DNA of 33,593 nt from an uncultured Anaerolineae bacterium (GTDB taxonomy: Bacteria > Chloroflexota > Anaerolineae > JAAYZQ01). Location: the NCBI GenBank assembly GCA_965370895.1, contig CBDUWJ010000001.1:1-33593 (forward strand), in the 5' to 3' direction. Position numbers and translations under genes: made by a program. The notes under the pieces are model-generated. The model ran no database searches. It was not told the origin of the DNA and saw only the letters and a program-made list of their open reading frames with translations. This document shows positions 19,923-25,290 of this stretch, in pieces (positions within the stretch are counted from its first letter, which is position 1; each line of letters starts with the position of its first letter).

Positions 19923-20477
19923 ATGCCGCTCATCAAGCGCTATCCCAACCGCAAATTGTACGACACCGAGGCCAAGCGGTACATCACCCTGGACGGGATC
20001 GCCACGCTCATCCGCCAAGGGCAGGAGGTCACCGTCGTAGACTATACCACTGGCGAGGACCTGACGGCCCTGACCCTGACGCAGGTCATCTCTGAGCAAG
20101 AGAGAAAGCGGAGCGGCTTCCTTCCTCAGACGGTGCTAGCGGGCCTGATTCAGGCCGGCGGTGACACCATGGCCACGCTGCAGCGCAGTCTTGCCTCCCC
20201 TCTCAACCTGGCGCGGCAGGTGGACGAGGAGATCGAAGAGCGGGTCCAGGCCCTGATCAGCCGGGGGGAACTGGCAGCAGAGGACGGACGCCGGCTGCGC
20301 GACAAGCTCCTGGCCAGGAGCGACCAGGAGCCCGAGGAGTCGTGGCCCAGTGACGAGGACATGGAGGAGGCCCTTGCCCAGCGCGATGTCCCCACCCGCG
20401 AGGACTATCAACAGATCCTGAAGCAGTTGGAAGTGTTGTCGTCCAAGCTGGACAGCGTATCTGGGATTCCAGAGTAG
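19923..20477 (+). CDS. phaR: polyhydroxyalkanoate synthesis regulator PhaR (PHB/PHA accumulation regulator DNA-binding domain)
   Basis: The N-terminus MPLIKRYPNRKLYDTEAKRYITLDGIATLIRQGQEVTVVDYTTGEDLTALTLTQVI matches the PHB_acc_N signature (IKKYPNRRLYDT...). AGGAG SD. Confidence 0.8.
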   Translation: MPLIKRYPNRKLYDTEAKRYITLDGIATLIRQGQEVTVVDYTTGEDLTALTLTQVISEQERKRSGFLPQTVLAGLIQAGGDTMATLQRSLASPLNLARQVDEEIEERVQALISRGELAAEDGRRLRDKLLARSDQEPEESWPSDEDMEEALAQRDVPTREDYQQILKQLEVLSSKLDSVSGIPE

Positions 20478-20495
20478 GTCTGGCCTGCAGACCCA

Positions 20496-20527
20496 GGAGC
20501 GGCGGATAGCATCGCCGCTCCTTTGCG
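20496..20527. terminator. hairpin terminator between convergent phaR and the receiver stub
   Basis: GGAGCGGCG-gatagcat-CGCCGCTCC, followed by TTTGCG. Confidence 0.55.
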
Positions 20528-20535
20528 ATCCTGGG

Positions 20536-20769
20536 TCAATTGATCTCCCGGATGGCGGTCAGACCAGCGTTGACCGGCATCTGGAGGTCCATGATGCTGA
20601 CGTCGGCCTGTGTCTCCTGTGCCAGCCGCATCGCTTCATCGCCGTTGGTCACCTGGGCCACCAACTCCATGTCCGTTTCCAATGCCAGCACGACCGCCAA
20701 TCCCTCACGCACGATGGGGTGGTCGTCGGCGATCAGGACACGTATCGGGCCAACCCTGTCCGGTGTCAT
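20536..20769 (-). pseudogene. truncated NarL/LuxR-type response regulator (first ~77 aa of the receiver domain only)
   Basis: IRVLIADDHPIVREGL...ADVSIMDLQMP..GLTAIREIN, then a stop. The acidic pocket and phospho-acceptor Asp are present. The conserved Thr/Ser, the Lys and the whole HTH output domain are absent. The start overlaps the HepT stop (ATGA). Confidence 0.7.
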
Positions 20770-21116
20770 TCCTGTCCCTCATAGTCCGCCAGGATCTGCT
20801 GAATCTGAGGTTTGACTGTCGGGATCCGTTGCGTGACGGTATCCCACACGATTCTCAGATTGATGTCCCCATAGCCATGAATCAGGCGGTCCCGCATGCC
20901 CGCCATTTCCTTCCACGGCACTTGGGGATACCCGTCACGGAATGCAGCCGGTAGGAGTTTGGTAGCCTCGCCAATGATTTCGAGTGCCCTGACGACGGCA
21001 AAGTTGATGCCGAAATCGGTCTCGAACTGGTCAAAGGCCACACCCTCCACCAGGATCTCGGCCTTGTCCATGGCATCCAGAATATCTTCAACGTAGTCCA
21101 GGAATTCATGGCTCAT
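20766..21116 (-). CDS. hepT: HepT-like (DUF86) RNase toxin of a type VII toxin-antitoxin pair
   Basis: 116 aa with the Rx4HxY motif RDRLIHGY. The start overlaps the stop of the upstream MNT gene by 4 nt. Confidence 0.8.
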   Translation of the reverse strand: MSHEFLDYVEDILDAMDKAEILVEGVAFDQFETDFGINFAVVRALEIIGEATKLLPAAFRDGYPQVPWKEMAGMRDRLIHGYGDINLRIVWDTVTQRIPTVKPQIQQILADYEGQE

Positions 21117-21412
21117 ACGAGCACCACCTCACTCATGATCCGCTTGCCGATTCTTTTCTTCAGATCGGCCTTGATCGCGACATCAGCTTTGACCCCCAGC
21201 AGATCGCTCAGGTGATACTCGAGGTTCACTAAATCAAAGAGATCGATACGCGGTGGCTCTTCCAGTGCAATCAGAACATCAATGTCACTGTCGGGGTGTT
21301 GTTCGCCCCGCACGTAGGAGCCGAATACGCCAATCTCGGCCACTCCATACTCACCGGCCAGATGGCTTTTCTGCGCTCGCAGAATCTGCTTGATTTCTTC
21401 TAGCGTCTTCAT
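21113..21412 (-). CDS. mntA: MNT-like minimal nucleotidyltransferase antitoxin
   Basis: 99 aa. GVFGSYVRGEQHPDSDIDVLI matches the GSx10DxD nucleotidyltransferase motif. Confidence 0.8.
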   Translation of the reverse strand: MKTLEEIKQILRAQKSHLAGEYGVAEIGVFGSYVRGEQHPDSDIDVLIALEEPPRIDLFDLVNLEYHLSDLLGVKADVAIKADLKKRIGKRIMSEVVLV

Positions 21413-21472
21413 GGTGTACTGCCCTTTCGCGCAAGCTAGAGAGTGCGCGGCAAGAACCCGGCTTGCGCACTA

Positions 21473-22384
21473 TTATACACCCTCATCCGCTCTCAAGGCA
21501 ACTGCGACCTCGGCGATCGTGCCCTGCCCGGGCGCAAGGGCGATCGTCATCCGGCCGCCGATTGCCTCCGTTCTCTCTTGTATAGTCGTCAAGCCCATCC
21601 CAGCCGAATCAGAGTCGAGATCGAAGCCGATGCCGTTGTCCTCCACGGAGAGCAGGACCTCATTTGCTTCGATCTCAATGCGAACGATGACCTCTGTGGC
21701 AGCGGCGTGGCGGAGCGCATTGTTGAGGGCCTCCTGGGCGATGTGGAAAAGTCGTTCCTCTACCTCGTCGGGCAGATCCTCGACGTCGCCCTGCGTAGGC
21801 TGGCGCGCCTCGACGTTTGCCCGCTGCTCCACATCTTCCAGCCGCTGTCGCAGTGCTGCCACCAGCCCTACTTCCTCCATGATGGGCGACCGGAGATGGT
21901 GGAGCAGTAGTCGCATCTCCTGGAGGGCCTACTGGCCGACCCAAGGCAGCCGCCGGAAGGACTTGGCAGGGTCCTCCAGGCGTCCCTGCGCCGCCATTGT
22001 ACCCAAGCCCTTGCTGAGCAGCGTCAGGCTCGTGAGGGACCAGGTGACCGAGGCGTGCAGTTCGCGGGCCAGCCGCTGCCGCTCGGCATCGACCGCCGCC
22101 GCTCCGGCCTGCTCCGAGAACCGGGCGTTTTCGAGAGCCGCAGCAACGTCACCGGCGATCGTCTCTGTCAGCGCGATCTCATCCGGCGTAAAGGTCCGGT
22201 TTTGCTGGTTGGCTCCCACGGTCAGCAGGCCAATGACCGCGCCCCGTGCTGTCAGCGGGACGAGCAGGATAGTGTGAAAGCCCAGAGCGCTTACGGAGGC
22301 GCGCACCGTATCTGCCGGGGGGGGACGCGCATCGCGCAGGCCGACGGACCGGCCTTCGTCAAGCACCCGGCGGGTGATGGGCAA
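21473..22384 (-). pseudogene. GAF-HisKA_3-HATPase histidine kinase, 5'-truncated and interrupted by an in-frame TAG (21929-21931)
   Basis: Two track ORFs (21929-22384 and 21473-21916) share one frame. The upstream ORF has a partial GAF domain and the H-box ERQRLARELHASV. The downstream ORF continues ALQEMRLLLHHLRSP... with N box EALNNALRHA, G1 DNGIGF and G2 GMGLTT. No sensor or TM region lies upstream. Confidence 0.7.
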
Positions 22385-22420
22385 CTGATCCAGCGGGAAG
22401 GTCTGGCCTGTCCCAGCGGC

Positions 22421-22798
22421 AAGTGCCAGATCTACATCGCGGGCAGCGACGGCCGGACGCTGCGACCGCTTCTCTCCGGCCAGGCCAACGATGATTCGCC
22501 CGCCTGGTCCCCCGATGGCCAGCGGATCGCCTTTGCCTCCGACCGCGCCAATCCCGGCAGCCGGACCCAGCCTGGCACAGCCAGCATCTATGTGTACGAT
22601 CTGGCGACCCGTACGCTTGAACAGTTAACAAAGGGCGATCAGGATGCTCAGTATCCTGCCTGGAGACCGCGATCATCGCGCGGTGCGCCACGAGTGCTGA
22701 GGAAGTTAGCTGCTGGACTCTTGCCCCTTTCGCTCGGCCTGGACCGTGGAGTGCTTTGCTCAGTAGAACACCCAGGTCCGATTGTGTGGTCAATATGA
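22421..22798 (+). pseudogene. fragment of a TolB-like PD40 beta-propeller repeat protein
   Basis: QIYIAGSDGRTLRPLLSGQANDDSPAWSPDGQRIAFASDR...IYVYDLATRTLEQLT...QYPAW equals two PD40 repeats. There is no N-terminus or signal peptide. The repeat pattern is lost after about 22669. Confidence 0.6.
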
Positions 22799-23266
22799 TG
22801 GCGCGTTGGACTGGAGAATATCAATCGCGCCAAAGAGCGCTCCGTACCCATGATTTCAAGGGGGGAGACGGCGTTCGCTTACGTCACTGGCCTGGTTCAG
22901 AGTACATCATGTTCCCGACCAGGACGCATAGTTTTTCCCGGTGAATGTACGAAATAACTGTACCCAATCTTGGGGATTGTGTTGAGCTTGGTGATACTCG
23001 TCGGCTATGGCAGCCCCGAGCCAACCTCGAGCTCGAGCCGAGGCAGCGGAAAGAGATCTTGGAACAGTGTGTGATGGACCGTATCGCGCCACGTGTGTTT
23101 CTGCAGATGGGCAGGGAGTTCACCACCAGGGGCACGAACGACGCCAGTTTCCCTCTTCTGTGTCCCTCGTGCCCCCAGGTAATCTTGGTTCCAGTCTGGG
23201 CGACCTGGCATCGCCAGTGGCCCCGTACGGGCAGGCCCACCGGGCCGCCTACCGGGCCGCCTTCTC

Positions 23267-23590
23267 TCAGTCATTGGATTCTGAGAGCACCTCCTCGGAG
23301 ATGAGAAACAGCGGATCATCGATGCGCTCCAGCGCTTTGGCCAGCCCGACTTGATAGTCCGGGTCAAAGAAGGATCTCTCAAAGGTCTCCATATCGGGAA
23401 AGTAGGCCTCTGTCATGTAGCGATAGGGCGCCTCGTCCCTCTTCCAGGCGCTCTCGATGACATAGAAATCGCCCTTGATGACGCCCGGGATGGACATGTT
23501 ACTCTCTTGATGGGTTGTGGTACGCCACTCGATGAACTCCTCGTGATCGGCGCCGGGCGGCAGGTTGTAAAGCACAGTCAACTTGATCAT
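23267..23590 (-). CDS. EthD family (dimeric alpha/beta-barrel) protein
   Basis: 107 aa. MIKLTVLYNLPPGADHEEFIEWRTTTH is typical of the EthD / TIGR02118-like family. The gene starts 11 nt downstream of hyuB. Confidence 0.65.
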   Translation of the reverse strand: MIKLTVLYNLPPGADHEEFIEWRTTTHQESNMSIPGVIKGDFYVIESAWKRDEAPYRYMTEAYFPDMETFERSFFDPDYQVGLAKALERIDDPLFLISEEVLSESND

Positions 23591-23601
23591 GGCGTCCTTT
23601 T

Positions 23602-25290
23602 CTACTCCTTGCTGCGCTTGTCCAGCTCATAGTACCGGTCCGCCTGCTCCTTGGTAATATAGCCATTTCTGAGATCTTCTTGTACCAACTCCAGGGGGCG
23701 CTCCAGCGGGTCGCCCCAGCCCGCACCTGTGCCGGTCATGACCTGGATGACGTCGTCGGTGTTCAGGGTCAGGCCGCTGATCAAGGCGTAGCGCTCCGTC
23801 TCACCGTTGGCGCGCCTGATCAGCACGTGGTTGGGCGAACCGTACTGACCGCCTCTCAAGGGCCACGGCGGGTTCTTGTCGCGCGTGTAGGCCACCGTCA
23901 GCCAGGCGTCGTCGGACTTGATGCGATAATCGATACGCACACCTTTGCCGCCCCGGTGGAGGCCGGCGCCACCATCCTCATCGTGAAAGCTGAGATAGTC
24001 CACCGTCACGCCGTATCGCGCTTCAGCCACCTCGGCCGGGCAGTTGTAGGTCTCGCCATGCAGCGCAGAGAACTGGCCCGGATTGCCGTCTGAGGTCGAC
24101 GACCCACCCCAGCCACCCAGCTCGGGTTCGATCACGGCATAGCTCCGGCCGGTGTCGGGGTGGATGCCGCCAAACAGCGTGCCACAGACCGACGCGAATC
24201 CGCCCGCGGGCAACCGCTCGGGCATGTGGGGTGCCAGGCAGCGCAAGATCAGATCATGCACCCGGATGGTAATCTCATAGTAGATGCCTTGAGCTGCCGG
24301 GTAGATCGGATCGAAAACGCTTCCGTGGCGCGTCAGGACCTTGAGGGGACGGAAGGTGCCGCCATTGGCCAACCTATCTGACGAGACGATTCCCTTGAAG
24401 GCGATCTGGCAGGCCACGATCGCTTCGTCCCGGCTCATGTTAAAGGGTCCCTTGTCCTGGTCCGGATTGTCGCGGAGATCGATGATAAACTCGTCATCCC
24501 GGATCTCGATCGTGACGTGATAGTCCGGTCCGGCATCCTGGGGCTCCACCAGGGTGTACTTGCCCTTGGGCAGGCGTTTCAGCGCGGCCAGGGTGACCTG
24601 CTCACCATAGTCCAGGTACTCTTCCACGGCGTGAAGAAAGACGTCCTTCCCGTACTTGTTCACGATCTCCAGAACGCGGCGCTCGCCGACGCGGGCCGAA
24701 GCCACGCCAGCCCACAGGTCGCCTATCAGGAAATCGGGCATGCGGCAGTTTGAGGTGAGGATGTCAAAGACCGACCGGATGGGCTCGCCCCGAGAAAAGA
24801 GCTTGATGCCAGACAGGATCATGCCCTCCTGGAAGATCTCGGTCGCGTCGGTGGACATGCTGCCCGGCACCATGCCCCCCACGTCGTTCCAGTGCGCGAT
24901 GTTGGCCGTCCAGGCAACGATCGCAGGCTCGCCCTCCGCCTCGTCTCCGGCAAAGACCGGCATGGTCAGGATCACGTCGTTCAGGTGCGTCACACCACCA
25001 GAGTAGGGGTCATTGGTGATAAAGATATCGCCTGGCTCGATGTCGCCCGGCTGGTCAAACTTCTTCATGACTTGCTTGACGGTCTTGTCCAGAACGCCGA
25101 CAAAGGCCGGGATTCCGGCCCCAGAACCGGCCAGCTCACCATTCTTGTCGGTGATGCCGGTGCCCATGTCGAGCACCTCGTAGATGATGGCGCTCATGGC
25201 CGTGCGGCGCAGGGCGGCAAACATCTCGTCGGCGGCCGCCTGCAGCGAGCTCTGGATGATTTCAATCGTAATGGGATCATACTTGTTCAT
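23602..25290 (-). CDS. hyuB: hydantoinase B / oxoprolinase family protein
   Basis: 562 aa. The N-terminus DPITIEIIQSSLQAAADEMFAALRRTAMSAIIYEVLDMGTGITD is the Hydantoinase_B signature. GGAGGA SD. Confidence 0.85.
   Translation of the reverse strand: MNKYDPITIEIIQSSLQAAADEMFAALRRTAMSAIIYEVLDMGTGITDKNGELAGSGAGIPAFVGVLDKTVKQVMKKFDQPGDIEPGDIFITNDPYSGGVTHLNDVILTMPVFAGDEAEGEPAIVAWTANIAHWNDVGGMVPGSMSTDATEIFQEGMILSGIKLFSRGEPIRSVFDILTSNCRMPDFLIGDLWAGVASARVGERRVLEIVNKYGKDVFLHAVEEYLDYGEQVTLAALKRLPKGKYTLVEPQDAGPDYHVTIEIRDDEFIIDLRDNPDQDKGPFNMSRDEAIVACQIAFKGIVSSDRLANGGTFRPLKVLTRHGSVFDPIYPAAQGIYYEITIRVHDLILRCLAPHMPERLPAGGFASVCGTLFGGIHPDTGRSYAVIEPELGGWGGSSTSDGNPGQFSALHGETYNCPAEVAEARYGVTVDYLSFHDEDGGAGLHRGGKGVRIDYRIKSDDAWLTVAYTRDKNPPWPLRGGQYGSPNHVLIRRANGETERYALISGLTLNTDDVIQVMTGTGAGWGDPLERPLELVQEDLRNGYITKEQADRYYELDKRSKE

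What the first reader, a model, noticed from the sequence alone, without database searches (positions are those of the whole stretch)
20536..22384. Intact MNT-HepT toxin-antitoxin pair wedged between the kinase and regulator of an eroded two-component operon
The minus-strand gene order is histidine kinase, 60-nt gap, MNT, HepT, response-regulator stub. The MNT-HepT junction and the HepT-stub junction are both ATGA overlaps.

The toxin-antitoxin genes look intact. MNT has GSx10DxD and HepT has RDRLIHGY. Both signalling genes are damaged. The kinase lacks its N-terminus and carries an in-frame TAG. The regulator stops after 77 aa.

Two readings are possible. A toxin-antitoxin cassette may have inserted into the HK-RR junction, and addiction then preserved the locus while the host genes decayed. 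Alternatively, the toxin-antitoxin pair is expressed from the kinase promoter and coupled to the receiver stub. Type VII systems are known to work by AMPylation of HepT by MNT. Embedding one inside a signalling operon is not something I recognise as described.
Basis: partly seen in the sequence, partly recalled or inferred. Interest (0 to 1): 0.6.

Follow-up and report, generated by a model that had tools for sequence, protein, structure and literature searches.

The report
Toxin-antitoxin cassette inside dead signalling operon
An intact, mobile MNT-HepT toxin-antitoxin gene pair was inserted a few bases before the end of a histidine-kinase gene, and the kinase and its response regulator are now broken remnants, so this is an ordinary insertion and gene-decay scar rather than a new signalling-coupled toxin system.

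Summary
On the minus strand lie a kinase remnant (22393..21473), a 60-nt gap, MNT (21412..21113), HepT (21116..20766) and a 77-aa receiver stub (20769..20536). Both ATGA overlaps are real.

MNT has GSx10DxD and HepT has Rx4HxY. The kinase lacks about 475 N-terminal residues, carries a TAG where paralogs have CAG, and has lost conserved H-box residues.

The arrangement is not an assembly error. The same joints occur in five independent assemblies and in unitigs from several sediment metagenomes.

Insertion is well supported:
- The cassette is GC-poor compared with its flanks.
- Its closest relatives (about 70% aa identity, same family) sit in unrelated contexts.
- 9 of 11 kinase paralogs are followed directly by a full NarL-type regulator.
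- 0 of 80 related HepT loci lie between a kinase and a regulator.
- A 7-nt direct repeat (ATGAGGG) brackets a 704-bp unit. Removing that unit in silico restores a kinase ending ...ADEGQE* whose TGA overlaps the regulator ATG.

The HepT-stub ATGA overlap is therefore inherited from the old kinase-regulator junction and is not evidence of coupling. The cassette has its own promoter-like site.

The idea that addiction preserved the locus is untested. This is a new instance of a known kind, of low to moderate interest.

The parts
20536..20769 (-). Response-regulator stub. It has 77 aa and holds only the first ~64 of 111 receiver-profile positions, with no beta4/beta5 and no LuxR HTH domain. Its ATG overlaps the HepT stop (ATGA).
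   Evidence: Full-length paralogs are 219-242 aa. The same truncation point is seen in L127 and L129. pN/pS is 0.44-0.48, against 0.14-0.30 for the neighbouring PhaR gene.
20766..21116 (-). HepT (HEPN RNase toxin), 116 aa, motif RDRLIHGY (Rx4HxY). The last four residues, EGQE, and the stop codon are host (old kinase 3' end) sequence.
   Evidence: PF01934, 6.2e-28. It is 71% identical to the G018 homolog, and that homology ends at ADY, residue 112. It is identical in sister strain L102, 0/348 nt.
21113..21412 (-). MNT (MntA-like nucleotidyltransferase antitoxin), 99 aa, motif GSx10DxD. It overlaps HepT by ATGA.
   Evidence: PF01909, 1.4e-17. PDB 1WOT minimal nucleotidyltransferase, 3.8e-11. 69% identical to the G018 homolog.
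21413..21472 (-). 60-nt leader between the kinase stop codons and the MNT start. It contains GCGCAAG / CTTGC(C)GCGC / CTTGCGCG inverted motifs, a candidate operator. The predicted fold is not better than shuffles.
   Evidence: z = -0.39. It is polymorphic at 21454, 21465 and 21467.
21472..21501 (-). Best sigma70-like site in the region, TTGCCT-18-TATAAT. The -35 box lies in the kinase 3' end and the -10 box lies 2 nt inside the inserted unit, so this is a candidate hybrid promoter for MNT-HepT.
   Evidence: 10 of 12 matches; 3 sites found against 0.7 expected.
21480..21486 (-). Left copy of the 7-nt direct repeat ATGAGGG (insertion junction in the kinase 3' end).
20776..20782 (-). Right copy of the 7-nt direct repeat ATGAGGG (junction in the HepT 3' end), 704 nt from the left copy.
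   Evidence: In-silico removal of one 704-bp unit gives the kinase ending ...ALRADEGQE*, with its TGA overlapping the regulator ATG.
21473..22393 (-). Histidine-kinase remnant: C-terminal half of GAF, HisKA_3 and HATPase_c. It has an in-frame TAG at 21931..21929. The H-box reads LHASVTW where paralogs have LHDSVTQ. About 475 N-terminal residues are missing.
   Evidence: Sister strain L102 carries an 11-nt length difference (frameshift) at the same spot.
22421..22700 (+). Context: a 5'- and 3'-truncated PD40/TolB-like fragment lying head-to-head with the kinase remnant. A 10-nt indel polymorphism lies at 22558.
   Evidence: The 22690-23270 stretch has no family match and no copies elsewhere.
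20478..20538 (+). Context: PhaR 3' hairpin, and the breakpoint at which the regulator gene is cut off.
   Evidence: Sequence. Unitigs branch at 20538, and one X1 contig continues differently from that point. In relatives PhaR is followed by amidohydrolase/MogA genes, not by a regulator.

Best explanation
A roughly 700-bp MNT-HepT (type VII-like HEPN/MNT) toxin-antitoxin cassette was acquired horizontally. It integrated by illegitimate or microhomology-mediated recombination 11 nt before the stop codon of a GAF-HisKA_3 histidine-kinase gene. The stop of that kinase gene originally overlapped the start of its NarL-type response-regulator gene (ATGA).

The insertion replaced the last three kinase codons. 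It gave HepT a four-residue tail (EGQE) and the kinase's old stop codon. That is why HepT now overlaps the regulator start.

The two signalling genes are dead.
- The kinase lost about 475 N-terminal residues to a rearrangement that joined it head-to-head to a PD40 fragment. It also carries a nonsense codon and H-box substitutions.
- The regulator was cut after residue 77 by a rearrangement next to the PhaR terminator.

The toxin-antitoxin pair is intact. It most likely works as described for HepT/MntA: HepT is an RNase, and MNT neutralises it by AMPylating the Tyr of Rx4HxY. This step is inferred from motifs and was not tested. The pair is probably transcribed from a promoter at the left insertion junction (inferred). 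The receiver stub is a by-product.
For: Domains and motifs.

Foreign origin of the cassette:
- GC is 52-55%, against 62-69% in the flanks.
- The closest homologs (about 70% aa, same family: G018, G002) lie next to a transposase/LuxR gene or a MetRS gene, not next to two-component genes.
- More distant homologs are scattered over bacterial and archaeal phyla.

Canonical state of such operons:
- 9 of the 11 closest kinase paralogs are followed directly by a 219-242-aa NarL-type regulator, several with overlapping stop and start codons.
- None of them has a toxin-antitoxin pair in between.

Empty-site reconstruction:
- The 7-nt repeat ATGAGGG flanks a 704-bp unit.
- Removing the unit yields an in-frame kinase end ...ADEGQE*, with TGA overlapping the regulator ATG.
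- HepT homology to relatives stops exactly at the repeat.

Not a recurrent architecture: 0 of 80 related HepT loci are flanked by a kinase and a regulator, while 77 of 80 have an adjacent MNT.

Pseudogene status:
- TAG where paralogs have CAG, and LHA..W where paralogs have LHD..Q.
- A different lesion, an 11-nt indel, in strain L102.
- A 10-nt indel polymorphism in the PD40 fragment.
- Stub pN/pS of 0.44-0.48.

Own promoter-like site.

Real in nature.
Against: - A 7-nt repeat in 35-nt junction windows arises by chance in 6.7% of shuffles. In strain L102 the left copy reads ATGAGTG.
- No empty-site allele and no orthologous intact kinase-regulator pair was found. The best kinase match is only 47% identical.
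- No RNA data exist, so the promoter and expression are inferred.
- MNT and HepT score below NCBIfam's equivalog cut-offs for MntA and HepT: 41.7 and 36.9 bits against 60.
- The low diversity of the toxin-antitoxin pair cannot be read as selection, because divergence along the locus is mosaic.
Confidence: 0.8

Rival explanations
1. Functional three-gene module. MNT-HepT is deliberately embedded in a signalling operon, and the 77-aa receiver fragment, translationally coupled to HepT, modulates the toxin-antitoxin pair or links it to phosphorelay input.
For: - The ATGA overlap would give translational coupling.
- The stub ORF is open in three diverged alleles and keeps the DD pocket and the phospho-acceptor Asp.
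- Stub pN/pS is 0.44-0.48, not 1.
- Two unverified scan notes mention HEPN/MNT genes next to kinases.
Against: - The overlap is accounted for by the ancestral kinase-regulator junction.
- The stub lacks beta4/beta5 (the conserved Thr/Ser and Lys) and any output domain.
- Conserved residues are replaced in sister alleles, for example the DxxMP Pro changed to Gln in L127.
- The kinase is dead.
- 0 of 80 related cassettes have such neighbours.
- The shared stop codon of the stub lies at a rearrangement breakpoint, so it is inherited by descent.
Confidence: 0.05
2. Patchwork juxtaposition. The kinase fragment, the toxin-antitoxin pair and the receiver fragment were brought together by separate rearrangements in a junk region. 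They were never an operon into which a cassette inserted.
For: - The 20478-23266 interval is a non-syntenic mosaic. It holds a PD40 fragment and 570 bp of unassignable DNA, and both PhaR and EthD have different neighbours in relatives.
- The repeat is short.
Against: - The kinase 3' end is complete, the regulator 5' end is complete, and they have the same strand and the canonical order.
- Excising one repeat unit gives an in-frame, overlapping stop/start junction like those of paralogs. Three unrelated joins would be unlikely to produce that.
Confidence: 0.1
3. Assembly or binning artefact: a chimeric MAG contig, with the TAG being a sequencing error.
For: The genome is an 81%-complete MAG in 498 contigs.
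Against: - Every joint is covered by independent assemblies and unitigs from different studies.
- The TAG is seen in X1, X3 and X4.
- Sister strains show their own lesions at the same sites.
Confidence: 0.02

Closest known systems
HepT/MntA (HEPN/MNT) type VII toxin-antitoxin systems, e.g. Shewanella oneidensis SO_3166/SO_3165 (PMC7641770)
   Same: - A two-gene module with MNT upstream and overlapping HepT.
- The PF01909/PF01934 pair.
- GSx10DxD in MNT and Rx4HxY in HepT, the two motifs the paper uses to define the pair.
- Small proteins (99 and 116 aa).
- A promiscuous phyletic distribution.
   Different: - It scores below NCBIfam's MntA and HepT equivalog cut-offs.
- HepT has no PDB hit by sequence.
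- Activity is untested.
- HepT carries a 4-residue tail and a stop codon taken from a host kinase gene.
NarL/LuxR-type two-component operons with GAF-HisKA_3 kinases (paralogs in the same Chloroflexota family, e.g. G006:C162, G007:C11)
   Same: The kinase remnant is 42-47% identical to these kinases. The stub aligns with their regulators' N-termini. The gene order and strand are the same.
   Different: Paralogs are 713-804-aa kinases directly followed by 219-242-aa regulators. Here the kinase lacks about 475 residues, has a stop codon and a degenerate H-box. The regulator ends at residue 77, and a toxin-antitoxin pair sits in the junction.
Chromosomal toxin-antitoxin cassettes as mobile insertions that stabilise neighbouring DNA (general concept, from my own knowledge of the TA literature; not checked in a paper here)
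   Same: A foreign, intact toxin-antitoxin pair surrounded by decaying genes, with deletions on both sides that stop short of it.
   Different: No evidence here that the pair actually prevented its own loss, and no empty-site allele to compare with.

Membership tests
[quoted passage not shown] | Toxin with a HEPN domain (PF01934 or PF08780) carrying Rx4HxY | tested here: met
   PF01934, 6.2e-28. RDRLIHGY read. Criterion taken from PMC7641770.
[quoted passage not shown] | Antitoxin with an MNT domain (PF01909) carrying GSx10DxD | tested here: met
   PF01909, 1.4e-17. GSYVRGEQHPDSDID read. Criterion.
[quoted passage not shown] | The two genes are neighbours in one operon | tested here: met
   4-nt ATGA overlap with MNT upstream. 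77 of 80 related HepT loci have an adjacent MNT.
[quoted passage not shown] | NCBIfam equivalog scores for MntA_antitoxin / HepT_toxin | tested here: not met
   41.7 and 36.9 bits against a cut-off of 60. It is a member of the broad Pfam-and-motif-defined class, not of the narrow equivalog.
[quoted passage not shown] | HepT is a toxic RNase, and MNT neutralises it by AMPylating the motif Tyr | not testable with these tools
   Needs expression and rescue assays and mass spectrometry.
Functional NarL-type two-component system | Kinase with a sensor/transmitter N-terminus, an intact H-box and an uninterrupted frame | tested here: not met
   Homology starts at residue ~476 of a 775-aa paralog. TAG at 21931..21929. 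LHASVTW where paralogs have LHD..Q.
Functional NarL-type two-component system | Regulator with a complete receiver domain and a LuxR-type HTH output | tested here: not met
   Only profile positions 1-64 of 111 are present and there is no HTH. Paralogs are 219-242 aa.

The most novel reading that the evidence does not exclude
The locus may be one example of a general but undescribed way in which MNT-HepT cassettes move. They would integrate by (micro)homology, Campbell-type recombination at the ends of host genes, leave target duplications of variable length, and carry scraps of earlier host genes with them.

Duplications seen so far:
- 7 nt in this window.
- 12 nt in two loci.
- 49 nt and 102 nt in two other loci.
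- About 32 nt in an earlier scan note.
- A MetRS relic carried inside the G018/G002 unit.

Once integrated, the cassettes would act as deletion barriers, so that intact toxin-antitoxin pairs end up marooned among gene remnants.
Probability: 0.2. Interest if true: 0.45.

Novelty: new member of a known kind. Interest (0 to 1): 0.25.

Why it matters
It mainly serves as a cautionary example. Tight ATGA overlaps and operon-like packing between a toxin-antitoxin pair and signalling genes can be inherited from the disrupted host junction, and need not reflect functional coupling.

It also gives a base-resolved natural example of how a HEPN/MNT cassette enters a chromosome. The cassette borrows a host stop codon and possibly half a promoter, and it stays intact while both neighbours decay in a sediment Chloroflexota population.

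If the flanking-duplication pattern seen in several other loci holds up, it would point to a mobilisation mechanism for the most abundant toxin-antitoxin family.

Tried and rejected
- **Syntenic empty site in relatives.** All 22 other genomes of the family and order belong to other genera. The best kinase match is 47% identical, so there is no ortholog.
- **JGI metagenome contigs searched with the kinase.** Only 26-30% relatives were found.
- **Empty-site allele in metagenome unitigs.** No joints skip the cassette in X1-X5.
- **Alternative contig that diverges at 20538 in X1.** Its 30-mer was not found in 26 related genomes, so that arrangement stays unresolved.
- **RNA evidence.** No RNA run holds the stretch.
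- **Rfam.** Nothing at E <= 0.1 in 20300-23700.
- **Leader hairpin.** It folds no better than shuffles.
- **Transposon-like ends.** There are no terminal inverted repeats or repeated elements around the cassette or the junk region, so transposition is unlikely.
- **Low toxin-antitoxin diversity as evidence of purifying selection.** Rejected, because an adjacent pseudogene segment and a phasin gene are just as invariant, which points to mosaic recombination.
- **HepT against PDB by sequence.** No hit.
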